From the NCBI GenBank assembly GCA_001513145.1, contig LFSP01000032.1:20088-84087 (forward strand): a DNA stretch of 64,000 nt, written 5' to 3'. The notes beneath the pieces are model-generated. The model was not told where the DNA came from. It was given only the letters and a program-made list of their open reading frames with translations, and did no database searches. The position numbers were made by a program, and so were the translations under genes. Origin of the DNA: Clostridia bacterium DTU025 (lineage in GTDB: Bacteria > Bacillota > DTU025). Below are positions 1-47,779 of this stretch, piece by piece. Positions within the stretch are counted from its first letter, which is position 1; each line of letters begins with the position of its first letter.

Positions 1-2931
1 GGCCATGGGCCTGCCAGTCCTGGCAGAGATCTGCTTCCTGGATGTCACCACGCCGGCCACGGTCACCACTTCGCCGTCCCTGTGTTGCGCAAGGTCCCTG
101 ATCTGAACGGTGGCCACCCGTCGAAGCACCTGAGCAAGGTTGGCCAGCGGATGGCCGGAGAGGTAAACACCGAGCAGCTCTTTCTCCATCTGCAGCACAT
201 GGTCCTCTCGGAACTCGGGCACGTCAGGCAAGCTGGTGACGGTTCCGCCGAACTCCGAAGGCGAGGAGAACAGGTCGAAGAACGAAGCCTGCCCCGACTG
301 GGCCGTGCGCTGCCGCGCGGCGCTGGCCTCGCACACCTGATCCATGATCGCCATGAGCTGCCGCCGGTTCCCGAAGGCGCTGAAGGCCCCCACCTGGATG
401 AGGCACTCGACGGCCTTGCGGTTCACCGCGTTCATGTCCACCCTGTAGCAGAAGTCGTCGAACGACACGAAGGGACCGCCCTTCTCGCGCTCGGCGATTA
501 TCGCGTCCACGGCGCCCACACCGACGTTCTTCACGCCCAGCAGACCGAAGCGTATTGCGTTGCCCACCACCGTGAACCCTTTCTGGCTCTGGTTGATGTC
601 AGGCGGCAGCACCTTTACGCCGTTTGCCCTACACACGTCTATGTACATCCCGACCCTGTCGGACGACCCCATCCACGACGTCAGTGTGGCGGCCATGAAC
701 TCAGGGAAGAAGTGCCGCCTCAGGTATGCCGTTCTGTATGAGATCAGGCCGTAGGCGGCGCTGTGCGACTTGTTGAACCCGTAACCGGCGAACCTCTCTA
801 TCAGGGCGAACACCTCTTGCGCGACGCGCGGATCCACGCCGCGCGCCCGCGCGCCGGCCATGAACCTGTCCTCCAGGCCCTTGATGACCTCCGGCTTCTT
901 CTTGCCCATGGCCCGCCTGAGCATGTCGGCCTCGCCCAGGCTGAACCCTGCCAGCTCGCTGGCTACCTGCATCACCTGTTCCTGATAGAGCATCACCCCG
1001 TAGGTGGGGCTCAGGATCTTCTCCAGCGCAGGATGAAGGTAGTGCACGGACTCCCTGTTGTTCTTGCCCTTCACGAAATCGCCTGTCATTATCATCGGGC
1101 CGGGACGCCCCAGGGCCACGATGGCTATGATGTCCTCGAACTTGGTGGGCTTCACCTCGCGCAGCATGTTCTGGAAGAGGCTGCTCTCCAGCTGGAACAC
1201 GCCTTCCGACTCGCCGCGGCACAGCATCGCGTATACCTCGGGATCGTCCAGAGGTATCTGGTCCATGTCAAGCTTGATGCCTCGGGTCTTCTCTATCATC
1301 TCCACGCAGTGCCCTATCACTGTGAGGGTCCTGAGCCCCAGAAAGTCCATCTTCAGGATCCCCAGTCGCTCCAGGTCATCCATGGCGTACTGGGTAGTCA
1401 CCACGCCGTCGCTGGACTTGTACAGCGGCACGTAGCTCGTGATGGTGTCCGCCGAGATTACCACGCCCGCGGCGTGCACCGAAGGGTGCCTTGGCATCCC
1501 CTCGATCGCCCTGGCCAGGTTGTAAACCTCCCTCACCTGCGCATCGGCGGCAACCTGCGACGACAGCTCTGGCGACATCTCCAGGGCCCTTTCCAGGGTC
1601 ATGTTGAGCTCGTTAGGCACCAGCTTTGCGACGCGGTCCACCTGGGCGTAGGGCATCTTGAGGACCCTGCCCACGTCCCTGATGGCCGCGCGGGCGCCCA
1701 GGGTGCCGAAGGTGATGATCTGCGCCACGCGGTCGGCCCCGTACTTCGAGGTAACGTAGTCGATGACCTCGCCCCTGCGCTCGTAGCAGAAGTCGATGTC
1801 GATGTCGGGCATGGTCACCCGCTCGGGATTGAGGAACCGCTCGAACAGCAGGCCGTACTTGAGCGGATCGATGTCAGTGATCCCTAGGCAGTACGACACC
1901 AGGCTACCTGGCGCTGATCCCCGTCCCGGGCCCACATGGATTCCGCGCCTCTTTGCGAAACTTACGAAATCCCAGACTATGAGGAAATATCCTGCATATC
2001 CCATGCGGGCAATGACGTCCAGCTCGTATTCGAGCCTCCGCTTGACCTCCTCGGCCAGCTCCGGATGGGCATCCATCTGCGGGTAACGGCGCGCCGCGCC
2101 CTCCCAGCAGAGCCTGGCCAGGTAGGACTCGCACGTCTCCCCAGGGGGAGGATCGTAATCCGGAACGTGCTTCTGGTCGAAGTCAAGCTTCACGTCGCAC
2201 ATCTCGGCGATCCTTACCGTGTTGGCGCAAGCCTCCGGGATCTCGCTGAAGGCAGAGTACATCTCCTCCGCCGACTTGAGGTAGAACTGGTCGGTGGGGA
2301 AACGCATCCTCCCCGGGTCGTCCATGCTGCACCCAGTCTGTATGCAGAGCAGCACATCGTGCGCCCGGGCATCCTCGCGCCTCAGGTAATGAACGTCGTT
2401 GGTGGCCACCAGCGGCACGCCGACGCTGCGAGCGAGATCCACCAGGAGCCGGTTCACCTCGTCCTGCACCCTCATGCCGTTGGACTGAACTTCAAGGTAG
2501 AACCGGTCGCGGCCGAAGATGTCGCGATATGTTCCGGCGGCCTCTCGGGCCCTTGCCACAGCCCTCTCCCGATCGGCCGCGCTCACCCCAAGGCACCTGG
2601 GCACCTCGCCCGAAAGGCAAGCAGACAGCGCTATGAGCCCCTCCGAGTGCTGGGCCAGGAACTCCTTGTCCACCCTGGGCTTGTAGTAGAAGCCCCTGGT
2701 GTACCCGGCGCTGGAGATCTTCATCAGGTTCTCGTAGCCTGTCTGGTCAGCCGCCAGGAGCACAAGGTGGTACGGGTCGTCGTCCAGCTTTCCCTCGCGC
2801 TGGTCCATGCTGCGCTGCGCCACGTAGATCTCGCAGCCGATTATGGGCTTCAGGCCCTCGCAAGCCAGGCTCCGGTAGAACTCCACGGCACCAAACAGGC
2901 AACCGTGGTCGGTGATGGCGCAGCTCGTCAT
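1..2931 (-). CDS. dnaE: DNA polymerase III alpha subunit (replicative DnaE). The C-terminus lies beyond the window edge. The reading frame continues upstream of the ATG at 2931 into an in-frame TAG (see findings).
   Basis: I translated the minus strand myself. From 2931 it reads MTSCAITDHGCLFGAVEFYRSLACEGLKPIIGCEIYVAQ, then the PHP, palm and fingers regions, including ...LGILKMDFLGLRTLT..., ...GYGFNKSHSAAY... and ...FERFLNPERVTMPDIDIDF.... AAGGAG lies 6 nt upstream of ATG 2931. The ORF has no stop inside the window, so the ORF track omits it. Confidence 0.9.
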   Translation of the reverse strand, partial: MTSCAITDHGCLFGAVEFYRSLACEGLKPIIGCEIYVAQRSMDQREGKLDDDPYHLVLLAADQTGYENLMKISSAGYTRGFYYKPRVDKEFLAQHSEGLIALSACLSGEVPRCLGVSAADRERAVARAREAAGTYRDIFGRDRFYLEVQSNGMRVQDEVNRLLVDLARSVGVPLVATNDVHYLRREDARAHDVLLCIQTGCSMDDPGRMRFPTDQFYLKSAEEMYSAFSEIPEACANTVRIAEMCDVKLDFDQKHVPDYDPPPGETCESYLARLCWEGAARRYPQMDAHPELAEEVKRRLEYELDVIARMGYAGYFLIVWDFVSFAKRRGIHVGPGRGSAPGSLVSYCLGITDIDPLKYGLLFERFLNPERVTMPDIDIDFCYERRGEVIDYVTSKYGADRVAQIITFGTLGARAAIRDVGRVLKMPYAQVDRVAKLVPNELNMTLERALEMSPELSSQVAADAQVREVYNLARAIEGMPRHPSVHAAGVVISADTITSYVPLYKSSDGVVTTQYAMDDLERLGILKMDFLGLRTLTVIGHCVEMIEKTRGIKLDMDQIPLDDPEVYAMLCRGESEGVFQLESSLFQNMLREVKPTKFEDIIAIVALGRPGPMIMTGDFVKGKNNRESVHYLHPALEKILSPTYGVMLYQEQVMQVASELAGFSLGEADMLRRAMGKKKPEVIKGLEDRFMAGARARGVDPRVAQEVFALIERFAGYGFNKSHSAAYGLISYRTAYLRRHFFPEFMAATLTSWMGSSDRVGMYIDVCRANGVKVLPPDINQSQKGFTVVGNAIRFGLLGVKNVGVGAVDAIIAEREKGGPFVSFDDFCYRVDMNAVNRKAVECLIQVGAFSAFGNRRQLMAIMDQVCEASAARQRTAQSGQASFFDLFSSPSEFGGTVTSLPDVPEFREDHVLQMEKELLGVYLSGHPLANLAQVLRRVATVQIRDLAQHRDGEVVTVAGVVTSRKQISARTGRPMA

Positions 2932-2985
2932 CGCTAACTCCTTGAGGCGGGAAGGCAACAACTCAGTTCTGCACGCCCCGTCCAC

Positions 2986-3036
2986 CTACAGGAGGGAGTA
3001 CTGCGTATGCAGATGCAGATGAACGAACTCCCTCAC
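2986..3036 (-). pseudogene. dnaE: N-terminal 16 codons of dnaE, (V)REFVHLHLHTQYSLL, ending in an in-frame TAG at 2986-2988. A GTG at 3036 is preceded by GGAGGTG.
   Basis: These codons are in the same frame as the main dnaE ORF, which I checked by codon counting. The FVHLHLHTQYSLL motif matches the conserved PHP motif FVHLHVH(S/T)EYSLLDG. The TAG sits exactly where the conserved Asp codon is expected. ORF track entry 2986..3213(-) ends ...EFVHLHLHTQYSLL. Confidence 0.6.
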
Positions 3037-3073
3037 CAGATCACCTCCCAAACGCGTACGCCGCAACCCGTCA

Positions 3074-3247
3074 TCAAGACTCTTCCTCGCGGCGCTTCGA
3101 AGGAGAATCCAGTTCGGTCGACCACCATCCCGGCAGCTCCAGCTCGGGATCGGGCAACCCTTCCTCTTCCCACTCGATTTCCTGGAGGATAGCGTCCATG
3201 ATGTCCCTGTCACTGTAATCCGAGGGTATCCTGCGGGGTCCGCTCAT
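3074..3247 (-). CDS. Hypothetical small acidic protein of about 57 aa.
   Basis: ORF with an internal ATG that is preceded by GGAGGTG at good spacing. The protein MSGPRRIPSDYSDRDIMDAILQEIEWEEEGLPDPELELPGWW... has no recognisable family. Confidence 0.3.
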   Translation of the reverse strand: MSGPRRIPSDYSDRDIMDAILQEIEWEEEGLPDPELELPGWWSTELDSPSKRREEES

Positions 3248-3305
3248 CGTGAACACCTCCAAGATCGTATGGTCGCACCCCTGAAGAAGCCAAGTCAGGA
3301 GGCTG

Positions 3306-14260: not shown

Positions 14261-16380
<2,120 letters not shown>

Positions 16381-16393
<13 letters not shown>

Positions 16394-32534: not shown

Positions 32535-32563
32535 GCATGGTGGTCTCGGAGGTGAAGACGCCA

Positions 32564-33766
32564 ATGCGGTACATAGCATATCTGAACCTACCCTACCTGC
32601 AATACTGCTCCAGCGTCAAGCCGGAGCAGCGCGGCCTGCCTTTGGCGGTGCTGGAGAACAACACCGTGGTCAGCATGTCGCCGGAGCTCGCGGCTCTGGG
32701 GGTGGCTCTCCGTGCCTCCCGCAGACAGGTGAAGCACGTCTGCCCCGAAGCCATGTTCGTGCAGCACGACAAGGACGCTTCCCTGCACCTGGCCAAAGGG
32801 GCATGGGACATATGCGCCGACTACACTCCCTTAGTGGAGCCCTCCGAGGTGAACTCCGCCTTCCTCGACATCACCGGATGCGGCGACGCCCGGTCCATAG
32901 TGGCGGAGCTATCCCGAAGGTGCGCCGAAACCCTGGGTTTTACGCCACACATCTGCGTCGCCCCCACCAAACTGGTGGCCAAAGCCGGCGTTCCGCCCAT
33001 AAGCTCCGAGGAGCGCGCTGCCTGGATAAGCCCTGACGAAGTCCTCGACTTTCTGGCACCGCTTCCGGTCCAGGCCCTATGGCCGCTGAGCAAGGCAACG
33101 CTGGAACACCTCTGGCGCCTTGGCGTGAACTCCGTGGCCCAGCTCAGGGCGGTGCCAGTGGAGGAGCTCATCGACCAGCTGGGCGAGGAGGGCCTGCTTG
33201 CACATCGGCTGAGCCTTGGGATCGACCACTCTAGGGTGCAGGCGGCATACCCGGAGCCGTCCGTGAGCTGCTCGTTCCGTTTCGACCAGCCGCTGGATTC
33301 CTGGGACGACATGCTCAAATGCCTGAAAATATGCGCCGCCCAGATCAGTTCCGAGCTTGACCAGGCCCAGGCGTCGACTTCCTCCGTGGAGCTGACAGTG
33401 CAGTCCGCCGGCTACGCCGACCTGGTCAAACGCCGCGCGGCCCTGCGCTCGCCCGCCAGCTCGGCCCAGGCGCTGGAAAGCGCCTTAATCAGGGCGGCCC
33501 GAGCGGCAACCCGGGCCAGCGCAAACGCGCCGGTGATCTCGCTGCACGCGCGCGCGACGAACCTGTCTATGCCAGCCGGCCTGCAGCTACGCATGTTTTG
33601 CCCCGAACTTCAGGGGCTGGCCCCGTCCGACGATGCATGCCACGCCGACGAGCTGGCCAGGGCCATCGAAAGCATCCGCCAGCGTTTCGGCGCCAAGAGC
33701 GTGCTCACCGCCGACGCCATCGTCCGCACCAGGCGCGACAGGATGATCGCCGCGTCTCTGCTGTGA
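32564..33766 (+). CDS. imuB: ImuB-like Y-family DNA polymerase paralog (SOS mutasome subunit).
   Basis: MRYIAYLNLPYL... N-terminus of DinB/ImuB type. GGAGGTG lies 9 nt upstream. It sits directly upstream of dnaE2. The ORF-track start at 32537 lacks an RBS. Confidence 0.75.
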   Translation: MRYIAYLNLPYLQYCSSVKPEQRGLPLAVLENNTVVSMSPELAALGVALRASRRQVKHVCPEAMFVQHDKDASLHLAKGAWDICADYTPLVEPSEVNSAFLDITGCGDARSIVAELSRRCAETLGFTPHICVAPTKLVAKAGVPPISSEERAAWISPDEVLDFLAPLPVQALWPLSKATLEHLWRLGVNSVAQLRAVPVEELIDQLGEEGLLAHRLSLGIDHSRVQAAYPEPSVSCSFRFDQPLDSWDDMLKCLKICAAQISSELDQAQASTSSVELTVQSAGYADLVKRRAALRSPASSAQALESALIRAARAATRASANAPVISLHARATNLSMPAGLQLRMFCPELQGLAPSDDACHADELARAIESIRQRFGAKSVLTADAIVRTRRDRMIAASLL

Positions 33767-33841
33767 GCCGCCTAGCCGCCTGGCCACAAGCTCCTTAACC
33801 TGAAGAACCCGCAAGCGCAAGTCGGAGGTCGAAGGTACATC

Positions 33842-34093
33842 GTGAGCCGAAAGGTGGAACGTCCCATAAGGGTGGAAGAGTCCACACAGGGCCCGCAGGG
33901 CCATCCTGTCAGCTTCTACTGGTCGGGGCGCTGGAACCGCGTCGACGCCGTGATCGACTCCTGGCGCGAATGCGGCGAGTGGTGGGACGGCGCGGAGGAA
34001 CACGATTACTTTCTCGTATCGTCCGGCTCCGGATGCTATGAGCTGAGCCGTACCTGCCATGGCCAGTGGGAGCTTTCAAGGATAATCGACTAG
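33842..34093 (+). CDS. Hypothetical 83-aa protein encoded between imuB and dnaE2.
   Basis: GTG start with GGAGGTCGAAGG upstream. Sequence MSRKVERPIRVEESTQGPQGHPVSFYWSGRWNRVDAVIDSWRECGEWWDGAEEHDYFLVSSGSGCYELSRTCHGQWELSRIID. It fits neatly in the gaps, 75 nt after imuB and 18 nt before dnaE2. Confidence 0.5.
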   Translation: MSRKVERPIRVEESTQGPQGHPVSFYWSGRWNRVDAVIDSWRECGEWWDGAEEHDYFLVSSGSGCYELSRTCHGQWELSRIID

Positions 34094-34111
34094 GAGCTAG
34101 GAGCCATCGCA

Positions 34112-37100
34112 ATGAGTCCAATGAGCCTGCCCGACCTTTTCGGCGGCTTCGTGCACCTGCACGTTCATTCCCAGTATTCGTTCCTCGACGGCGCCAGTCG
34201 CTGTTCCGAGCTGGTAGCCAGGTGCGCCGAGCTGGGCATGGGCGCCATGGCCATAACGGACCACGACAACGTCAGCTGCGCCGTGGAGTTCGCGCGCGCC
34301 GCGGCCGAACACGGCATCAAGCCCATCCAAGGCGTGGAGCTCACCATGGAGGGCGGCGCGCATCTCACGCTCCTTGCGGAGAACCCTGAGGGCTACGCCA
34401 ACATCTGCAACATCCTCACCGATGCGTACATGAACTCGTCTGACCGACGTCGCCCCGAAGCCCGTGTTCATACACTTGAGCGCCACAGCAAGGGCCTGAT
34501 AGCCCTGTCAGGATGCCGCCGCGGCGCCATCCCCGCCGCCATCCTTGCCCGCCAGCACGACCGGGCCATGCAGGCAGCCGAGGCGCTGGTGAAGATCTTC
34601 GGGAAGCGCAACTTCTACATAGAGCTGCAGCACCCCATGACCCCGGGAGCCGCAGCTCTCAACTCCGCCTTGATTCACCTGGCCTCCAGCCTGGGAGTGG
34701 GGGTGGTGGCCACCAACAACGTACACTATACGCACAAGTCCGGATTCGAGCTGCACGACGTGCTCACATGCATCAGAACGCTGACGACCCTCGACGACAT
34801 CCATCCCGAACGGCACATAAACGCGGAGAACTATCTGAAATCCGCAGCCCAGATGCGGGAGCTTTTCGCGCTCGTTCCCGAGGCCGTCGTCAACACCCTG
34901 GCCATCGCCGAACGGTGCAGCCCAGGCCTGAACCTCGGCCGCAAGCTGTTCCCCAAGTACGAGCCGCCCGCAGGCGAATCCCCCGCATCGCTCTTGCGCC
35001 GCCTGACCATGCAGGGCGCCGAGGCCAGGTACGGGCGAATCACCCAGGCCGTGCGCGACAGGCTCGAGCACGAGCTCAACGTCATCATCACTCTGGGCTT
35101 TGAAGGCTACTTCCTTGCAGTTCATGACATAGCGGCATGGGCCCGCGGGCGCGGGATACGATGCGCCGGACGGGGCTCCGCAGCCGACTCGGCGGTGGTG
35201 TACTGCCTGGGCCTCACCAACGTTGACCCGATCGCCCGTGGACTGCTGTTCGAGCGATTTCTGAGCCTGGAGAGGGCTCAGAGGCCCGACATCGACATCG
35301 ACTTCCAGTCCGACCGCCGCGACGAAGTGGCCGATTACGTTTACGAGCGCTACGGCCAGGGCCATGTGGCGTCCGTATGCACCTTCAACACCTTCCTCGC
35401 CCGGTCGGCTGTGCGTGACGTGGGAAAGGCCCTGGGCATCCCCGAGCCCGAGATCGACAGGCTCGCCAAGCGTCTGCCGCACATCCCCGCCGACGGCGTG
35501 CGCGCCGCCTTCTCGCGCTATCCGGAGCTCAGGGATTCAGGCATACAGCCCCATCGTTTCGAACTTCTGCTCGACCTGGTGCACCAGATGGCCGGGCTGC
35601 CACGGCACATCGGCACGCACCTGGGAGGCCTCGTGATATCCGGCGAGCCCCTCACGTGCGTCACCCCGCTTCAGATGTCCGCCAAGGGCGTGCCCATCAC
35701 GCAGTTCGACAAGGACTCCATCGAGGAGCTGGGCCTCATCAAGCTCGACCTGCTGTCGTTGCGCACCCTCTGCGCCGTGGAACGCGCCCAGGAGCTCATA
35801 AAGGCCCCGGAGTTCAGCTACGACCGCATCCCCCACGACGACGCCGCCACCTATTCCATGCTGCAGTCCGGCGAGACCATAGGCGTCTTCCAGCTGGAAA
35901 GCCCCGCCCAGCGGGCCCTGCAGCCGCGGCTCAAGGCGGATTCCTTCGAGGACATCGTGGCCAGCGTGGCGCTGATAAGGCCGGGCCCCATCAAAGGCAA
36001 CATGGTGGAGCCCTTCGTGGCCAGGCGTCGCGGCAAGGAGGAGGTCAGCTACGTCGACCCGCGCCTCGAGCCCATCCTCAAGAAGACCTACGGCGTCGTG
36101 TTATACCAGGAGCAGGTGATCCAGATAGCCACCGCTATCGCTGGATTCAGCCCTGGAGAATCCGACAGGCTCCGCAAGGTGATGACCCACTGCCGCTCAA
36201 TGGTGGAAATGGAGGCCATAGGCCGCGACTTCGTGGCCAAGGCCATGGCAAACGGCACCGACAAGGAGACAGCCGAAACCATATTCTCCTACATCGTGGG
36301 CTACGCGGGCTACGGGTTCTGCGAGGCCCACGCGGCCGCCTTCGCCGACACGGCATACCGCACCGCCTACCTGTGCAGGCATTTCCCGGCGGAGTTCTTC
36401 GCGGCCCTCTTAAGCGCCCAGCCCATGGGCTTCTACCCGCCGCGCACCCTGATCGTGGAGGCGCGCCGACGCGGGGTAAGAGTGCTGCCGCTTGACGTCA
36501 ACGCCAGCAAGCACAGGTATACGGTGGAGAACGGGGCCATAAGGGTTGGACTAATGCAGGTGAAAGGGATATCCGCCTCCGACATACAGAGCATAGAGGA
36601 CGCCCAGGCCAGCGGCCCATTCACCTCAGCCGCCGACTTCGCCGCCCGCACCGATGTGCCCGTGGACGTCTTCGAGAACCTGGCGCTGGCAGGGGCCTTC
36701 GATTCCATCGAGCCCAACCGACGAGCCGTGGTGTGGGCTGTAAGGCGCCTTGCCAGCTCCTCCGCCGCAGCCAGGAAGCTCAGCTCAGAGGCGGAGGCCG
36801 CAGGGCAGATGCGCCTTTCCGGCCTTGAAGACGGTGCCTCCCTCAAGGCCCACGTCGCGGAGGCCTCCAGGAGCATCCGAGACTTCACCCCCATCCAGAG
36901 TTTCGCCGCCGAGACGGAGATCCTGGGATTCTGCGTGCATAAGCACGCCATGGAGTTCTACCGCTCCTCCCTGGCCAGATGGGGGGCGCTCACGGCATCG
37001 GAGATCGCCCAGGCCAAGCCGGGGCAACTGGTGAGGGCGGCCGGCCTCGTCGTGCGCCCGCACCGGCCGCCCACCAAGAGCGGCCGCACCGTGGTCTTCC

Positions 37101-37333
37101 TGTCGCTGGAAGACGAGACCGGCCTCACAGACGTGACGGTGTTCGAAAGCGAGTACCAAAAATACGGCGCCGCCATATTCGGCAGCGCGGCCTTGCTGGT
37201 GGAGGGCACGGTATGCGACAGGGGCGGAGCGGTGTCAATCACGGCAAAGAGGATCCGCCCTTTTCGGGGTCGACGAGGGCACGCGTCTCCTCGCCAACCA
37301 TCGGCCAGTACCGACCGAGAAGCATGTCGGTGA
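34112..37333 (+). CDS. dnaE2: Error-prone DNA polymerase DnaE2 (ImuC).
   Basis: Intact PHP start FVHLHVHSQYSFLDGASRCSELVARCAELGMGAMAITDHDN..., ...DIDIDF..., a C-terminal OB fold, and an operon position behind LexA-box/imuB. Confidence 0.85.
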   Translation: MSPMSLPDLFGGFVHLHVHSQYSFLDGASRCSELVARCAELGMGAMAITDHDNVSCAVEFARAAAEHGIKPIQGVELTMEGGAHLTLLAENPEGYANICNILTDAYMNSSDRRRPEARVHTLERHSKGLIALSGCRRGAIPAAILARQHDRAMQAAEALVKIFGKRNFYIELQHPMTPGAAALNSALIHLASSLGVGVVATNNVHYTHKSGFELHDVLTCIRTLTTLDDIHPERHINAENYLKSAAQMRELFALVPEAVVNTLAIAERCSPGLNLGRKLFPKYEPPAGESPASLLRRLTMQGAEARYGRITQAVRDRLEHELNVIITLGFEGYFLAVHDIAAWARGRGIRCAGRGSAADSAVVYCLGLTNVDPIARGLLFERFLSLERAQRPDIDIDFQSDRRDEVADYVYERYGQGHVASVCTFNTFLARSAVRDVGKALGIPEPEIDRLAKRLPHIPADGVRAAFSRYPELRDSGIQPHRFELLLDLVHQMAGLPRHIGTHLGGLVISGEPLTCVTPLQMSAKGVPITQFDKDSIEELGLIKLDLLSLRTLCAVERAQELIKAPEFSYDRIPHDDAATYSMLQSGETIGVFQLESPAQRALQPRLKADSFEDIVASVALIRPGPIKGNMVEPFVARRRGKEEVSYVDPRLEPILKKTYGVVLYQEQVIQIATAIAGFSPGESDRLRKVMTHCRSMVEMEAIGRDFVAKAMANGTDKETAETIFSYIVGYAGYGFCEAHAAAFADTAYRTAYLCRHFPAEFFAALLSAQPMGFYPPRTLIVEARRRGVRVLPLDVNASKHRYTVENGAIRVGLMQVKGISASDIQSIEDAQASGPFTSAADFAARTDVPVDVFENLALAGAFDSIEPNRRAVVWAVRRLASSSAAARKLSSEAEAAGQMRLSGLEDGASLKAHVAEASRSIRDFTPIQSFAAETEILGFCVHKHAMEFYRSSLARWGALTASEIAQAKPGQLVRAAGLVVRPHRPPTKSGRTVVFLSLEDETGLTDVTVFESEYQKYGAAIFGSAALLVEGTVCDRGGAVSITAKRIRPFRGRRGHASPRQPSASTDREACR

Positions 37334-44791: not shown

Positions 44792-47779
44792 ATGAACAGG
44801 CATTTCAGAACCGTCGCATTTCTTGCGTTCATACTATGCGTCGTCATGTTGAGGCCTCTCGCGCCGCAAGCGGTGGCGGCCACGGAGCGGGCGCTGCCCG
44901 ATGGAAACGGCGCGGGCGCTGCGGCCTCGGAGGCCTGGCCGCGGGCTAGCATCGTCCTGCCCATCGCCCCCGGGGTCACGGTGGAGCGCCGCAGCTGGCT
45001 GGGGAGCCTCGGCTGGATGCAGCTTACGGTGGTCAGGGTGGACCTTTCGTCATCGGCCGTGGTGACGAGGCCGGTTCTGTCGGAGTCGTCGCTTTCGGTG
45101 CCGGAGAAACCCACAGTCATCGCTGAGAGTAACGGCCTCCTGGCGGCTGTGAACGGCGACTTCTTCGATATGGGCGCTACAGGCGCGCCCCTTTCGATGG
45201 TGGCCGCAGAGGGTAGAGTGATCCGGTCGCCAAGGGTAGATCCGGATTTCGCGTCCATCGCCATAACCCGCGACGGCCAGGCTGTGCTGGGGCACTGGGA
45301 GTGGGTGGGCGAGCTGGCATCGATGGATGGCTCCTTCACGCTGCCGCTGGCGGGGCTGAACGAGGTCTCGGTGCCTCCGGATTCCGCTGTGCTCTACACG
45401 GAGGAATGGACCTGGTCGAAGGTGCCTGACCACGCTGACGCCGGCCACATCGCCATAGGCGACGGCATCGTCATGTGCGTGGTGCCGGGTTACCCCTTCA
45501 CAGCGCCGTCTACGTACGTGGTTGCGCGGGGAGAAGCCTGGCGCCAGCTGCGGCAGATAGAGCCGGGGCAGGAAGTGGTCATACGCTCGGAGCTGAGGCC
45601 GGGGTTCACACGGCTGGAAGCTGCGTTTTCCGGCAAGCCTGTGCTCGTGCTGGATGGCGAGCCTGCGCCCGACCTGGCGAGGCACGCCACCATCGGCGCT
45701 GCGTATCCGGCGCCCAGAAGCGCCGCCGGAATCACTGCCGACGGGCGCACTCTGATCTTGGCCGTGGTGGACGGAAGGGCTCAGGGGGCAAGAGGCGCGA
45801 CCCTCGAGGAGATGGCCCACATCATGATCGAGTTGGGAGCGGTCAGCGCGCTCAATCTGGACGGCGGGGCTTCGTCGGCGGTGGTGGTGAGAGACCCCAT
45901 CTCAGGCGCCCTGCAGCTGGCCAATCGTCCGTCGGCTGGGGCTGAGCGCCCGGTGCCCTATGTAGTCGGCGTGCTACCAGCGATGGCTGAAGATGGGCGG
46001 GCCGGCGGCGGGGAGACCGCTGGTGGCGAAGCCGCCGGCGAGTATGAAGCCGGTGGGCAGGCTGTGCACGGTCAGCCGCCGGGCGAGAGCTCGGCGCTGG
46101 ACATGCACACGGACATGGACTCGGGCTTGGGCTCGGGCTGGAGCTCTGCCCCGAGCTTTATCGCAGTGCAGGTGGACGCAGGCGATTCGGTGCACGTCGT
46201 TCCCTCGCTGGCCAGGGCGGTGGCTGACAGCGTCGATTTCTTCACTGGTGACGAGATCGTGTGTGCATCTGGAATTCCGTTGCAGCTTAAGGTCGTGGCG
46301 TTCGACTCCAGCATGAAGCGCATCCCGCTGCAGCGGGCTGCAAAGACGGTGGACGCTGAATACGTTGAACAGGAAGGTGGCAATAGCGCACAAGGGGAGT
46401 CCGGCGCGAGGGATGTACCCGCGGACCATGATGCAATGGGCTCGGATGTTGCGGCCGCTGCCGAGGCCGCGTTCGAGCACTCGGAAGAGACCCAGCGCAC
46501 CGGAGGAGCCGAATACTTGGGCATCCCTGGTGGCCCCGTGTGGACGGTGCTGCATCCTAAGAACCTCCGGCACGACGGCGCCGCGCACGTGGACGCCGTG
46601 TGGCACCCCTCTGCCGACGGCACAGAGGTCATATTCTCGCCGCTTCCGGGGTCCAGGACTGAGATAACGGTCGTCTGGGAGATGCCTGACGGCACCCGAA
46701 CCAATACAGTCACTTTCGCCGTGCGATGCCTGCCCGGGTCGCCGGCTGCGCCTCTAGGCGTTCTCGGAGAGCCAGCATGGACGATCCTGGACGACTTCGA
46801 ATCAGGCCGGCCGTGGTCGGCCGCGTCGTCCTCGCCTGAGGTGTTGGCAGCAGTGTCCTTCGTGAACGCGGCGCCGCACGCGGCGGCTGCCGACAGGGTT
46901 ATTGAGGCGCTGCCCCAGTACCCGAGCGGAACGGCGCTCTCCCTCAAGTTCGACTTTAGCTCACATGAGGTCACCCGGGCGGCCTACGCCCGCCCGATCC
47001 GCCCCATTCCCTTGCCGCCGGGCACTGAGGCCATCGGACTCTGGGCGTGGTCAGACGGAAACGGGCACTGGCTCCGCGCGACGGTCACCGACTCCGAGGG
47101 CGTGAAGCACCCTCTGGATCTTGCGCGCATGGACTGGCTAGGATGGAAGTTCGTCACGGCCGCGTTGCCCGACTCCTTGCCTGAGAGTTGGCTCATGGGA
47201 GAAGTGTACCTGACGCAGGTGTACCTCGTGGAGTTCAAGCCCGAGCTCTCCTCAGCCGGCGCCATCAGCTTCGACGGCCTGAGCGCCCTCGCACCTGCGG
47301 CGCAGCTGGTGGAGGAGTCCGCGCAGTCGGATGAGGACGGCCTGCTGCTAGGCCTTGCCGACCCGGGAGCCACCGGCACCGTCATAACCCTCGACGCGAG
47401 TGAGCCCATACCCTGGCCCCTCCTCCGGGCTGAGTTGGAATCGTTCAAGCTCAGCGATGAACTGGAGCTTACCGTGGTGCTGAGAGACGGCAGCGCCGTC
47501 GCTCGGCCCGGGCTGCCGGTGCCGGTCGGCCAGCTCAGCCTGGCGATCGGCGGATCCTTTGACGACGCGGTTGCGGCCGAGTTGCTCCTCGAGATGCTGG
47601 CTGACTGCGTCGACGGTTCCACCAGGGTCACCCTGGTTCAGGAGGACGCCGCTTCGTCGAAAGCAGGAGAGGCCAGGGCGTTGTACAAAGGGGTGTTGCT
47701 CATCTGGCGGCCGGGGCCGGAGGCGGTGGAAGAAAGCGCGCGCGGCCACGGCGGTCAATCCGGCCGGTCGGACCAGTAA
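44792..47779 (+). CDS. Large secreted protein with an N-terminal phosphodiester glycosidase domain (DUF2233/NAGPA-like) and about 550 aa of unassigned C-terminal region.
   Basis: Signal peptide MNRHFRTVAFLAFILCVVML.... Contains ...NGDFFDM... and ...ALNLDGGASSAVVV... motifs. Confidence 0.6.
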   Translation: MNRHFRTVAFLAFILCVVMLRPLAPQAVAATERALPDGNGAGAAASEAWPRASIVLPIAPGVTVERRSWLGSLGWMQLTVVRVDLSSSAVVTRPVLSESSLSVPEKPTVIAESNGLLAAVNGDFFDMGATGAPLSMVAAEGRVIRSPRVDPDFASIAITRDGQAVLGHWEWVGELASMDGSFTLPLAGLNEVSVPPDSAVLYTEEWTWSKVPDHADAGHIAIGDGIVMCVVPGYPFTAPSTYVVARGEAWRQLRQIEPGQEVVIRSELRPGFTRLEAAFSGKPVLVLDGEPAPDLARHATIGAAYPAPRSAAGITADGRTLILAVVDGRAQGARGATLEEMAHIMIELGAVSALNLDGGASSAVVVRDPISGALQLANRPSAGAERPVPYVVGVLPAMAEDGRAGGGETAGGEAAGEYEAGGQAVHGQPPGESSALDMHTDMDSGLGSGWSSAPSFIAVQVDAGDSVHVVPSLARAVADSVDFFTGDEIVCASGIPLQLKVVAFDSSMKRIPLQRAAKTVDAEYVEQEGGNSAQGESGARDVPADHDAMGSDVAAAAEAAFEHSEETQRTGGAEYLGIPGGPVWTVLHPKNLRHDGAAHVDAVWHPSADGTEVIFSPLPGSRTEITVVWEMPDGTRTNTVTFAVRCLPGSPAAPLGVLGEPAWTILDDFESGRPWSAASSSPEVLAAVSFVNAAPHAAAADRVIEALPQYPSGTALSLKFDFSSHEVTRAAYARPIRPIPLPPGTEAIGLWAWSDGNGHWLRATVTDSEGVKHPLDLARMDWLGWKFVTAALPDSLPESWLMGEVYLTQVYLVEFKPELSSAGAISFDGLSALAPAAQLVEESAQSDEDGLLLGLADPGATGTVITLDASEPIPWPLLRAELESFKLSDELELTVVLRDGSAVARPGLPVPVGQLSLAIGGSFDDAVAAELLLEMLADCVDGSTRVTLVQEDAASSKAGEARALYKGVLLIWRPGPEAVEESARGHGGQSGRSDQ

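What the first reader, a model, noticed from the sequence alone, without database searches (positions are those of the whole stretch)
2929..3036. Replicative dnaE carries an in-frame TAG exactly at the conserved PHP-domain Asp codon (YSLL-TAG-G)
Reading the minus strand upstream of the annotated ATG at 2931, the frame stays open and encodes REFVHLHLHTQYSLL. This is the universal DnaE N-terminal PHP motif FVHLHVHxEYSLLDG. A TAG at 2988-2986 replaces the Asp, and the frame then continues VDGACRTELLPSRLKELA-MTSCAITDHG..., all in one frame. A GTG with GGAGGTG sits at 3036. An AAGGAG-ATG restart exists at 2931, but those bases are also the Lys-Glu codons of the conserved KEL-x-M segment. TAG is used as a genuine stop elsewhere in the window, for example in rpmJ and the 83-aa ORF, so reassignment of TAG is unlikely. 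The options are a sequencing or assembly error, an N-terminally truncated DnaE that restarts at Met 2931 and lacks the HxH metal ligands, genuine pseudogenisation, or stop-codon readthrough. An intact dnaE2 is present in the same window.
Basis: seen in the sequence. Interest (0 to 1): 0.65.

Follow-up and report, generated by a model that had tools for sequence, protein, structure and literature searches.

The report
Conserved programmed stop inside dnaE
The stop codon near the start of this bacterium's replicative DNA polymerase gene is not an error or a dead gene: it is a 6-base insert conserved across many related bacteria, which ribosomes must somehow get past, most likely by hopping over it.

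Summary
The TAG at 2986-2988 (minus strand) is real and in frame. It does not replace the PHP-domain Asp. The Asp codon (GAC, 2980-2982) is intact, and TAG-GTG are six extra bases between the LL and DG codons of the universal YSLLDG motif. All 80 intact dnaE controls have no insert there. The same interruption sits at the same site in every relative examined at 57-100% protein identity, and in one remote lineage. Eleven junction variants were found. The stop is TGA or TAG. The next codon is GTG, ATG, TTG, CTG, CCG, CTT or CTA. One lineage has a 7-nt insert, seen in two independently assembled strain contigs; a third variant's gene call implies it. The 16-codon leader ORF (MREFVHLHLHTQYSLL) is under strong purifying selection (pN/pS 0.08). 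It has an unusually strong Shine-Dalgarno sequence, and its last codons are chosen to pair with its own ribosome-binding region. All nine PHP metal ligands are kept. Sequencing error and pseudogene are refuted. Start at Met 2931 is unlikely. Best reading: a programmed +6 (or +7) stop-hop that restores the canonical YSLL-DGA. Rivals are readthrough and a split gene with reinitiation. No natural in-frame stop-hop has been described. The mechanism is inferred, not shown.

The parts
3039..3049 (-). Extended Shine-Dalgarno sequence GGGAGGTGATC of the leader ORF
   Evidence: Sequence. The predicted duplex with the 16S 3' tail is -20.5 kcal/mol here. The mean is -19.9 in 11 interrupted lineages against -8.3 in 79 intact dnaE controls (p=7e-7).
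2986..3036 (-). Leader micro-ORF: GTG start, 16 sense codons (M-REFVHLHLHTQYSLL, carrying the HxH metal ligands and beta-strand 1 of the PHP domain), then the TAG stop
   Evidence: The amino-acid sequence is conserved with only synonymous change across lineages: pN/pS 0.08, all 14 third positions variable, out-of-frame controls above 1.
3027..3034 (-). 5' arm GAGGGAGT (last base of the start codon plus codons 2-4) of the leader hairpin. In the single-sequence fold the C-tract can pair with the SD GGGAGG instead.
   Evidence: 96% of cells paired against 55-76% for slid controls, with compensatory GC->AU changes in L087, L113 and L114..
2992..2999 (-). 3' arm ACTCCCTC (within the Tyr-Ser-Leu codons) of the leader hairpin. 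It ends immediately 5' of the last Leu codon.
   Evidence: The native YSLL codon choice ranks at a median 1.5% of 432 synonymous variants for pairing with the 5' region, against 50% in intact controls. TCC, CTC and CTG are the only invariant four-fold sites in the clade.
2989..2991 (-). Last leader codon CTG (Leu), the proposed take-off codon
   Evidence: It is always a CTN Leu codon in all 11 junction types.
2986..2988 (-). Conserved in-frame stop. It is TAG here and TGA or TAG in relatives; TAA was never seen.
2983..2985 (-). Junction codon GTG: proposed landing codon, alternatively a reinitiation start. Together with the TAG it forms the 6-nt insert.
   Evidence: In the high-GC clade the third base is G in 13 of 13 sequences, the second is T in 12 of 13, and the first base is free (GTG 6, ATG 4, TTG 1, CTG 1, CCG 1). 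It is CTN in five other lineages.
1..2982 (-). Main dnaE reading frame. It starts at the intact Asp codon GAC (metal ligand, equivalent to Mtb DnaE1 D23) and runs off the window start.
   Evidence: NCBIfam NF005298 DnaE equivalog, 1446 bits against a cutoff of 1260. The alignment to 2HPI and 5LEW shows the remaining seven PHP ligands. P0001 shows that the full body is 1036 aa counted from Met 2931.
2929..2931 (-). Internal ATG with AAGGAG 6 nt upstream. It is the start chosen by gene callers and is probably not the true N-terminus.
   Evidence: AAG-GAG are the Lys-Glu codons of the common KEL.M segment. L099 has no Met at this position.

Best explanation
The dnaE of this uncultured Bacillota bacterium carries an ancient, selectively maintained 6-nt insert (stop codon plus one codon). 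The insert lies between the Leu-Leu and Asp-Gly codons of the PHP-domain motif YSLLDG.

Translation starts at a very strong ribosome-binding site and reads a 16-codon leader that encodes the HxH metal ligands. It then meets TAG. I propose that a fraction of ribosomes do not terminate. The peptidyl-tRNA(Leu) detaches from the CTG codon, the mRNA slips 6 nt, and the tRNA re-pairs with the near-cognate GTG. In other lineages the re-pairing codon is NTG or CTN; in one lineage it is an identical CTT 7 nt away. Decoding then resumes at GAC (Asp). This 'stop-hop' gives a full-length DnaE with the canonical YSLL-DGA sequence and a complete nine-ligand PHP site.

The strong SD compensates for the low efficiency of the hop. 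A hairpin pairs the last leader codons with the leader's own SD or start region. It probably couples initiation to ribosome occupancy at the stop, or biases the mRNA forward.

Shown: conservation of the interruption, selection on the leader peptide, the co-evolved SD and pairing, and that the stop is an ordinary stop. Inferred: that the event is a hop rather than readthrough or reinitiation, and what the hairpin does.
For: - Conservation. A stop lies at exactly this site in every relative examined, across 11 junction types at 57-100% protein identity. A remote lineage, L099, has it too; its nearest intact relatives are Planctomycetota-type DnaEs. None of the 80 controls is interrupted.
- Canonical product. 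Removing the insert restores a gapless canonical motif, and all nine PHP ligands are present. The Asp after the junction is equivalent to ligand D23 of Mtb DnaE1, whose D23N mutant has lost exonuclease activity (PMC5636811).
- Leader selection. pN/pS is 0.08.
- Codon match. The codon before the Asp matches the last Leu codon at 2 or more of 3 positions in all 11 junction types, and perfectly in two (CTG..CTG, CTT..CTT).
- The 7-nt junction. CTT TGA G CTT GAT puts the two parts in different frames. Its DNA is identical in two independently assembled strain contigs, and a third variant's gene call starts with the same frameshifted N-terminus. A hop is indifferent to frame.
- No usable start in some lineages. 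CTA, CTT and CCG are not start codons. L099 has no in-frame ATG, GTG or TTG from the stop to TDHG.
- Junction codon constraint. In the high-GC clade the junction codon is fixed at bases 2-3 and free at base 1, the opposite of an ordinary sense codon.
- Strong SD..
- Pairing. Codon choice favours leader pairing (p=3e-6), with covariation and a 14-bp stem in L099 at z=-6.2.
- Precedent. Leu-stop-Leu with 9 nt encoding one residue is the arrangement of the synthetic E. coli stop-hops; pairing of mRNA exiting the ribosome is proposed as a driver of gene 60 bypassing (PMC5009743; bioRxiv 2024.12.09.627546).
Against: - No protein or ribosome data exist; the mechanism is inferred from sequence comparison only.
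- Known synthetic stop-hops are inefficient (about 1%, from memory), and no natural case is known.
- The window's landing codon GTG mismatches tRNA-Leu(CAG) at the first position. L117 has CCG, a middle-position mismatch, though this rests on a single contig.
- Ten of 11 junction types are in frame, which is also what readthrough predicts.
- NTG after the stop in the window's clade is also the signature of a start codon.
- The match at 2 or more of 3 positions could partly reflect single-step mutations from an ancestral CTN or CTG.
- The lineages are not phylogenetically independent, so the p-values are optimistic.
- Single-sequence folding of the window leader is no more stable than shuffles (z about 0).
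- With the stop in the A site, the 3' arm of the stem lies inside the ribosome. A 6-nt move would expose it only partly.
Confidence: 0.45

Rival explanations
1. Programmed stop-codon readthrough in the in-frame lineages, and prfB-like +1 frameshifting at CUU UGA in the 7-nt lineage. A near-cognate tRNA decodes TAG or TGA. The product carries two extra residues (X-Val here) between Leu-Leu and the Asp ligand.
For: - Ten of 11 junction types keep the two parts in frame.
- Only TGA (leakiest) and TAG are seen, never TAA. The fourth base is often C, a weak termination context by my recollection of Poole et al. 1995.
- The residue after the stop is hydrophobic (V, L or M) in 10 of 11 types.
- L117's CCG is unproblematic under this reading.
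- The 7-nt lineage has exactly CUU UGA, the prfB shift site.
Against: - No DnaE among the 80 controls tolerates any insertion between LL and DG. The insert would sit next to a metal ligand.
- If a two-residue insert were tolerated, stop-to-sense mutations should have fixed somewhere in a clade with saturated synonymous sites. None has.
- The junction codon is constrained at bases 2-3 and free at base 1, unlike a translated Val or Leu codon.
- The model needs two different mechanisms plus an abrupt switch to explain the 7-nt lineage.
- No SD lies 3 nt upstream of CUU in L087.
- No conserved 3' stimulatory structure was found.
- The inserted residue would change between TGA and TAG lineages.
Confidence: 0.2
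2. A genuinely split gene. The 16-aa leader peptide is released at TAG. The ribosome reinitiates at the adjacent GTG and makes fMet-DGACR... The peptide, which is beta-strand 1 with the HxH ligands, then docks non-covalently to complete the PHP barrel.
For: - In the window's clade the codon after the stop is ATG, GTG or TTG in 11 of 13 unique sequences. The first base is free and TG is fixed, which is the classic degeneracy of start codons.
- Gene callers start several relatives at this codon (MDGA...).
- Stop-start adjacency resembles translationally coupled cistrons.
- The leader peptide is under strong selection.
- Peptide-complemented proteins exist in principle (my knowledge: RNase S, split GFP).
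Against: - Five lineages have CTA, CTT or CCG after the stop. L099 has no in-frame start codon before TDHG. The 7-nt lineage has CTT in another frame.
- CTG in two lineages is a very poor start codon.
- The sequence upstream of the junction is CCUCC (anti-SD-like), not an SD.
- The stop-start spacing never varies in the way it does between coupled genes.
- A free 16-mer would have to survive and find its partner.
- I know of no precedent for an enzyme active site completed by a separately translated 16-mer.
Confidence: 0.2
3. An N-terminally truncated DnaE made from Met 2931 (AAGGAG-N6-ATG). It would lack the HxH and Asp ligands. The leader would be only a regulatory upstream ORF.
For: - A good SD-ATG is present at 2931.
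- This is what automatic annotation predicts for most relatives.
- If these Bacillota carry a PolC, as Clostridia do with their DnaE1 (PMC3919608), a PHP-dead DnaE would be conceivable. No polC lies in the window, so this was not checked.
Against: - The leader keeps the exact canonical PHP sequence, with pN/pS 0.08.
- DGA after the junction is kept in all 10 lineages retrieved without a DNA pattern.
- All seven downstream PHP ligands are kept.
- L099 has no Met at that position.
- AAG-GAG are simply the Lys-Glu codons of a common motif, and they are not conserved in L088 or L087.
Confidence: 0.07
4. Sequencing or assembly error, or a recently inactivated pseudogene.
For: A single in-frame stop in an essential gene of a metagenome-derived sequence is most often one of these.
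Against: - The identical junction occurs in an independent assembly.
- A stop at the same site occurs in 18 unique sequences from many samples and assemblers, with TGA and TAG variants and 11 junction types.
- Purifying selection acts on both parts.
- The body scores above the DnaE equivalog cutoff.
- The SD and the RNA pairing have co-evolved with the insert.
Confidence: 0.03

Closest known systems
Synthetic 'stop-hops' in E. coli (Weiss, Dunn, Atkins & Gesteland 1987; reviewed in PMC5009743)
   Same: Matched or near-matched codons flank a stop, the peptidyl-tRNA re-pairs 6 nt downstream, and 9 nt specify one amino acid. The example I recall is Leu-stop-Leu (CUU UAG CUA), essentially the arrangement of L114 (CUU UGA CUA) and L099 (CUC UGA CUA).
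   Different: Those were engineered reporter constructs with low efficiency. The review states that no natural in-frame stop-hop is known. Here the arrangement is natural, lies in an essential gene, is conserved over deep divergence, and comes with a strong SD and a leader hairpin. The window's own landing codon (GTG) is only near-cognate.
Phage T4 gene 60 translational bypassing (50-nt coding gap)
   Same: A stop codon lies immediately 3' of the take-off codon. The peptidyl-tRNA is retained and re-pairs at a matched landing codon. The mRNA 5' of the take-off site can pair as it leaves the ribosome. One polypeptide is made from two ORFs.
   Different: The gap here is 6-7 nt rather than 50. The take-off codon is Leu CTN rather than Gly GGA. 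The nascent chain is only 16 residues and is the enzyme's own conserved motif, not a dedicated signal. No take-off stem-loop comparable to that of gene 60 was found. The host is cellular rather than a phage or mobile element.
prfB (RF2) programmed +1 frameshift, CUU UGA C
   Same: It is an early in-frame stop in an essential gene after a Leu CUU codon, conserved across bacteria. Slow termination gives the P-site tRNA-Leu time to re-pair. The 7-nt lineage has literally CUU UGA.
   Different: In 10 of 11 junction types the parts are in the same frame, so a +1 shift cannot work. No SD lies 3 nt upstream. The stop may be TAG or TGA, so there is no RF2-specific autoregulatory logic.
Programmed stop-codon readthrough (for example phage Qbeta A1 protein; Sec or Pyl insertion)
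   Same: A conserved in-frame stop is followed by in-frame coding sequence that must be translated.
   Different: The stop type varies between lineages, which excludes Sec and Pyl. The product would carry an insertion in an otherwise invariant loop. One lineage is out of frame.
Cyanobacterial split dnaE (dnaE-n / dnaE-c with a split intein)
   Same: It is a naturally interrupted dnaE whose two parts must be joined to give a functional polymerase (PMC3919608).
   Different: There the split is, as I recall, near residue 770. The halves lie at separate loci and are joined by protein trans-splicing. Here no intein sequence exists, and the two parts are adjacent and 6 nt apart.

Membership tests
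DnaE-type DNA polymerase III alpha subunit (C-family replicase) | Full-length match to a curated DnaE equivalog model, and the PHP / pol3-alpha / finger / HhH / OB architecture | tested here: met
   NF005298 scores 1446 bits against a cutoff of 1260 on the window-truncated body. The identical full-length P0001 carries PF02811, PF07733, PF17657, PF14579 and PF01336.
DnaE-type DNA polymerase III alpha subunit (C-family replicase) | Nine PHP metal ligands (H, H, D, H, E, H, C, D, H), as in the exonuclease-active Taq and Mtb enzymes | tested here: met
   All nine align with 2HPI and 5LEW when the leader is joined to the body without the 6-nt insert. Two of them (HxH) are encoded only in the leader ORF.
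Translational bypassing / stop-hop | A stop (slow-to-decode) codon immediately 3' of the take-off codon | tested here: met
   TAG or TGA directly follows the last Leu codon in all 18 unique sequences.
Translational bypassing / stop-hop | The landing codon is cognate or near-cognate to the take-off codon and is followed by the codon that resumes the conserved protein | tested here: met
   All 11 junction types match at 2 or more of 3 positions, perfectly in L101/L118 (CTG..CTG) and L087/L120 (CTT..CTT). The next codon is always the Asp of DGA. L117 (CCG) is the weakest case. The match may partly reflect shared ancestry.
Translational bypassing / stop-hop | Indifference to reading frame (the gap length need not be a multiple of 3) | tested here: inconclusive
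   One lineage of 11 has a 7-nt gap: its DNA was read in two strain contigs and a third variant's gene call implies it. All the others have 6 nt.
Translational bypassing / stop-hop | The protein product lacks the residues encoded by the gap | not testable with these tools
   This needs mass spectrometry of DnaE or of a reporter.
Translational bypassing / stop-hop | Stimulatory mRNA structure or nascent-peptide signal (gene 60 type) | tested here: inconclusive
   The leader hairpin is supported by codon-choice tests and covariation. Its role is unknown, and the single-sequence z-score is about 0 in the window. Nascent-peptide effects were not tested.
Programmed stop-codon readthrough | The in-frame stop and the downstream in-frame coding are conserved in all members | tested here: not met
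   This holds in 10 junction types but fails in the L087/L120 lineage (7 nt, other frame).
Selenocysteine / pyrrolysine recoding | A specific stop codon (TGA for Sec, TAG for Pyl) conserved at the site | tested here: not met
   The same site carries TGA in most lineages and TAG in two. TAG is a normal stop elsewhere in the window.
prfB-type +1 programmed frameshift | CUU UGA N with the downstream ORF in the +1 frame, and an SD-like element 3 nt upstream | tested here: not met
   In the window the downstream ORF is in the 0 frame and the stop is TAG. Only L087/L120 has CUU UGA with a +1 ORF, and it has no upstream SD.
Split gene with termination-reinitiation coupling | A usable start codon (ATG, GTG or TTG) for the downstream cistron at or next to the stop | tested here: inconclusive
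   Met in the window (GTG) and in most of its clade. Not met in L099, L113, L114 (CTA or CTT), L117 (CCG) and L087 (CTT, other frame). L099 has no in-frame start before TDHG.
Intein-split DnaE | Intein halves flank the split | tested here: not met
   Only 6 nt separate the parts, and the precomputed Pfam domains of the relatives list no intein family.

The most novel reading that the evidence does not exclude
This is the first natural, evolutionarily maintained in-frame 'stop-hop': a 6-7-nt translational bypass in a cellular, essential gene, the replicative-type DNA polymerase. It has arisen or been retained in at least two very distant DnaE lineages. It is equipped with a super-strong SD and a leader hairpin that ties polymerase synthesis to what happens at the stop codon.
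Probability: 0.4. Interest if true: 0.9.

Novelty: new variant of a known kind. Interest (0 to 1): 0.8.

Why it matters
Programmed bypassing in bacteria rests largely on one phage example, T4 gene 60. The authoritative review says natural in-frame stop-hops are unknown, although they might hide among presumed readthrough cases.

A conserved Leu-stop-Leu-type insert in dnaE would give the field a cellular model. It comes with 11 natural sequence variants that already act as a mutational series: stop type, landing codon, and a 6-nt versus 7-nt gap.

Whatever the mechanism, the finding means that the amount, and possibly the proofreading competence, of a replication polymerase in these anaerobic-digester Bacillota depends on a non-standard translation event. 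That is an unexpected layer of control.

There is also a practical consequence. Every gene caller truncates these DnaE proteins at 'MDGA...' or at the internal Met. Databases therefore describe them as lacking the HxH ligands, and pipelines may flag the gene as a pseudogene.

Tried and rejected
It returned only relatives at 52% identity or less. They were useless as close relatives, but I reused them as 80 intact controls.
- Code reassignment of TAG was rejected. TAG ends 13 of 40 long ORFs, including rpmJ and mgtE. Relatives use TGA at the same site.
- A suppressor tRNA in the window was rejected. Only tRNA-Glu(CTC) and tRNA-Gln(CTG) are present.
- Sec and Pyl were rejected because the stop type varies.
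- I first aligned seven loci with wrong offsets. The stem was still visible, and I redid the alignment in register.
- RNAalifold also proposed a long-range helix between the SD tail (GGTGAT/GGTGGT) and the TDH codons about 120 nt downstream. I did not adopt it, because both sides are forced by the SD consensus and by ITDHG codons.
- A 4-5-bp mini-hairpin enclosing the stop (CUGU...ACGG) is seen only in the high-GC clade. It is made of protein-constrained bases and I left it as a note.
- Literature searches for a described dnaE stop, readthrough or recoding event found nothing relevant. The large survey of PolIII alpha subunits only mentions fragmented sequences that were 'reconstructed'.
- I did not run structure prediction. 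It could not distinguish the three mechanisms.

Full report
**What is in the sequence**

On the minus strand, an extended Shine-Dalgarno sequence GGGAGGTGATC (3049-3039) is followed after a short spacer by GTG (3036-3034). The reading frame then runs AGG GAG TTC GTT CAT CTG CAT CTG CAT ACG CAG TAC TCC CTC CTG TAG GTG GAC GGG GCG. This reads M-REFVHLHLHTQYSLL, stop (2988-2986), V, D, G, A. The frame continues without further stops into a DnaE that leaves the window at position 1.

Its claim that TAG replaces the Asp is not. The Asp codon is the GAC at 2982-2980. The distance from that Asp to ITDHG is exactly canonical.

When TAG-GTG are removed, the N-terminus aligns without a gap to Taq PolIII alpha (2HPI) and M. 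tuberculosis DnaE1 (5LEW), with all nine PHP metal ligands in place. All 80 dnaE loci from diverse phyla that I had fetched read [YF]S[LM]LD with nothing in between, G following in 78 of 80. The feature is therefore a 6-nt in-frame insertion: a stop plus one codon. It lies between beta-strand 1 with its HxH ligands and the Asp ligand. That Asp is equivalent to Mtb D23, whose D23N mutant has lost exonuclease activity and has a lower melting temperature (PMC5636811).

**It is not an error, a reassigned codon or a pseudogene**

An independent assembly carries the identical sequence (L081). TAG terminates 13 of 40 long ORFs in the window, including mgtE and rpmJ. The window holds no suppressor tRNA.

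A protein search found a whole clade of relatives, at 61-100% identity to the window's DnaE, whose gene calls all begin either at 'MDGA...' or at the internal Met. More distant intact relatives begin MGEFAHLHLHTQYSLLDGACK.

I fetched the DNA of ten such lineages by exact-protein look-up. A further 19 loci came from one metagenome pattern scan. Every one has a stop at the same place:

| Locus (protein, identity to window) | Last Leu | Stop | Junction codon | Asp |
|---|---|---|---|---|
| window | CTG | TAG | GTG | GAC |
| L082 group (P0003, 78%) | CTG | TGA | GTG | GAC |
| L086 group (P0005, 71%) | CTG | TGA | TTG | GAT |
| L088 group (P0049, 70%) | CTG | TGA | ATG | GAC |
| L101/L118 (P0053, 70%) | CTG | TGA | CTG | GAT |
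| L117 (P0054, 67%) | CTG | TGA | CCG | GAC |
| L091 (P0055, 61%) | CTT | TAG | CTG | GAC |
| L113 (P0087, 58%, a long 1144-aa DnaE) | CTC | TGA | CTT | GAC |
| L114 (P0090, 59%) | CTT | TGA | CTA | GAC |
| L099 (remote low-GC lineage) | CTC | TGA | CTA | GAT |
| L087/L120 (P0068, 57%), one extra base G after the stop | CTT | TGA | CTT | GAT |

The last junction has a 7-nt gap, so the leader and the body are in different frames. Its DNA was read in two contigs that differ at nearby bases (L087, L120). A third strain variant (P0121) has a gene call beginning with the same frameshifted N-terminus.

**Both parts are translated and under selection**

Across the 18 unique sequences the leader has pN/pS = 0.08. 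All 14 third positions vary, against 5 first and 3 second positions. The same bases read out of frame give ratios above 1.

The DGA residues after the junction are kept in all ten lineages that were retrieved without any DNA pattern. The 17 codons between the Asp and the internal Met have pN/pS 0.49, in a helix that I recall as variable in DnaE generally.

The body passes the curated DnaE equivalog threshold (NF005298, 1446 against 1260). The second polymerase in the window (34112-37333) passes the error-prone DnaE2 model and follows an ImuB-like gene, so it is a mutasome cassette and not a replacement replicase.

A leader that keeps the exact ancestral HxH..YSLL sequence, together with a body that keeps the other seven ligands, implies that the 16 residues are still physically part of the enzyme.

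**Features that co-evolved with the insert**

- Strong SD. The leader's SD is exceptionally strong. The predicted duplex with the 16S tail averages -19.9 kcal/mol in 11 interrupted lineages. It averages -8.3 in 79 intact controls (p=7e-7) and -9.5 in GC-matched controls.
- Codon choice for pairing. The last four leader codons are chosen to base-pair with the leader's own initiation region. Among the 432 synonymous ways of writing YSLL, the native one ranks at a median 1.5% for duplex energy with the SD, start and first codons. In intact controls the median is 50% (Mann-Whitney p=3e-6 on 11 lineages).
- The stem. In the window's clade the stem is GAGGGAGT (3034-3027) with ACTCCCTC (2999-2992). 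L113 has the compensated GAGGGAAT/ATTCCCTC and L087 has AGAGAGT/ACTCTCT. On a registered alignment 96% of cells pair, against 55-76% for slid controls, with three double-change cells.
- L099. There the same codons plus the take-off codon form a 14-bp stem with the SD (z=-6.2). The intact relative L115 has nothing comparable.
- A caveat. The window's own leader is no more stable than its shuffles (z about 0), and its C-tract can pair with the SD instead. What is robust is 'the 3' end of the leader pairs with its RBS region', not one exact helix.
- Invariant sites. Within the high-GC clade the only invariant four-fold sites are TCC, CTC and CTG just 5' of the stop.

**Which mechanism**

Three ways of making a functional enzyme remain.

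(A) A stop-hop. With the stop in the A site, peptidyl-tRNA-Leu leaves CTN, the mRNA moves 6 (or 7) nt, and the tRNA re-pairs with the next codon. Asp is then decoded, giving the canonical YSLLDGA.

(B) Readthrough, giving YSLL-X-V-DGA, with a prfB-like +1 shift in the 7-nt lineage.

(C) Termination and reinitiation at the junction codon, giving a 16-mer plus an fMet-DGA body that assemble non-covalently.

Against C:
- CTA, CTT and CCG are not start codons, and CTG is a very poor one.
- L099 has no in-frame ATG, GTG or TTG from the stop to TDHG. Its relative P0129 is accordingly called only from after that motif.
- The 7-nt lineage has CTT in another frame.

Against B:
- No DnaE in the control set tolerates an insertion here.
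- No stop-to-sense variant has ever fixed, despite saturated synonymous sites.
- The junction codon in the window's clade is fixed at bases 2-3 (G at the third base in 13 of 13) and free at base 1. This is the reverse of a translated Val or Leu codon.
- The 7-nt lineage would need a different mechanism.

For A:
- In all 11 junction types the codon before the Asp matches the last Leu codon at two or more positions. Take-off CTY goes with landing CTN in 5 of 5 lineages. Take-off CTG goes with NTG in four types and CCG in one. The match is perfect in two types, including the 7-nt lineage.
- A 1-nt indel in the gap is neutral for a hop.
- A precise 6-nt deletion would restore exactly the intact sequence seen in the two intact sister groups of the NJ tree (the tree has no support values).

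Leu-stop-Leu, with 9 nt for one residue, is the design of the synthetic E. coli stop-hops. The Atkins et al. review states that in-frame stop hopping might underlie some presumed natural readthrough, but that 'no occurrences are known' (PMC5009743). Pairing of mRNA emerging 5' of the ribosome has been proposed as the driver of forward movement in gene 60 bypassing (bioRxiv 2024.12.09.627546). That gives a possible role for the leader hairpin. Alternatively, the hairpin masks the RBS until a ribosome occupies the stop.

I therefore rank A first (about 0.45). B and C follow at about 0.2 each. C is most credible specifically for the window's clade, because NTG is also the start-codon signature. 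Start at Met 2931 gets about 0.07 and error or pseudogene about 0.03.

Weak points of A:
- No product data exist.
- Known hops are inefficient.
- The window's GTG is only near-cognate.
- L117's CCG is an outlier, though it rests on a single contig.
- Ten of 11 types are in frame.
- The lineages are not independent.

**Distribution**

The interrupted genes come from uncultured Bacillota of anaerobic digesters and fermenters. Source names include 'Firmicutes bacterium ADurb.Bin506', 'Bacillota bacterium' and 'Clostridia bacterium'. They share the synteny mgtE / peptidase M29 / small ORF / dnaE / DUF2007 / pfk / spoVT.

In the NJ tree the main clade plus P0068 is monophyletic. P0087/88 and P0090 are separate, deeper interrupted branches interleaved with intact groups.

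L099 is far away. Its best database hit has 55% identity, and its nearest intact relatives are Planctomycetota-type 'DGANR' DnaEs. So the insert has either arisen more than once at the same spot or has moved between lineages.

**Comparison with what is known, and verdict**

The gene is a bona fide DnaE. The interruption works most like a stop-hop or short bypass. It shares the stop-after-Leu logic of prfB but not its frame. It is not Sec, Pyl or an intein.

I found no description of it in the searchable literature. That search covers open-access papers only.

The ordinary explanations are excluded. What remains is a conserved programmed recoding site, or less likely a micro-split, in a replication polymerase. 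This is unusual under any of the three mechanisms and is directly testable.

Noticed in passing
window 32537-37333 (+): An ImuB-like Y-family gene (32537-33766) is followed by an intact DnaE2 (34112-37333; NF004225 'error-prone DNA polymerase', 950 bits against a cutoff of 939). This looks like an imuB-dnaE2 mutasome cassette. I did not look for an imuA-like gene upstream.
   Followed up: partly
window 3074-3262 (-), and L081 2676-2849, L082 2641-2808, L086 2517-2732, L091 2548-2778: A small ORF (55-76 aa, no Pfam hit) always sits between the peptidase M29 gene and the dnaE leader in the interrupted lineages. In the window it ends about 40 nt before the leader's SD. Its function and any link to dnaE expression are unknown.
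   Followed up: no
window 3039-3045 with 2902-2908 (-); alignment A3 columns 23-28 with 163-168: The SD tail GGTGAT/GGTGGT is complementary to the I-T-D-H codons (ATCACC / GACCAC) about 120 nt downstream. Together with the CCUCC tract, the mRNA thus carries both halves of an anti-SD look-alike. RNAalifold proposed this helix. It may simply follow from the SD consensus plus ITDHG codon usage.
   Followed up: no
window 2977-2992 (-): A possible 4-5-bp mini-hairpin, CCUGU/ACGGG, has the last two bases of the stop and the GTG in its 6-nt loop. It is present throughout the high-GC clade but not in L099 or L113. It is built from protein-constrained bases.
   Followed up: partly
L115 and L116, about 1400-1500: An intact close relative (P0081/P0067 lineage) reads ...AGGAGAGGGTTAGG ATA GGC GAG TTC GTT CAT... 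There is no ATG, GTG or TTG at the expected start, so gene callers begin 30 codons downstream. This may be an ATA (or other non-canonical) start for dnaE.
   Followed up: no
L117 1360-1500: This is the only junction with a Pro codon after the stop (CTG TGA CCG GAC). It comes from a single 7.5-kb JGI contig, and its protein cluster has one member. It could be a real variant, a decaying copy or an assembly error.
   Followed up: partly
window 14261-16393 (-): A 710-aa ABC-F family protein matches the 'ribosomal protection-like ABC-F' model (NF000355, 462 bits against a cutoff of 380) and EttA/Uup-like models. It is a translation factor family, with no evident link to the dnaE site.
   Followed up: no
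window 44792-47779 (+): A 995-aa ORF has no NCBIfam match at E<=1e-10. I did not examine it further. In this GC-rich DNA it may be a spurious long ORF.
   Followed up: no
P0128, P0129 (relatives of L099): The two closest relatives of the remote interrupted lineage are called only from well inside the PHP domain ('MYGALDFY...' just after TDHGN; 'MGYRNLLKL...'). That is what an L099-like interruption without a downstream start codon would produce. Their DNA could not be fetched because the look-ups were exhausted.
   Followed up: partly
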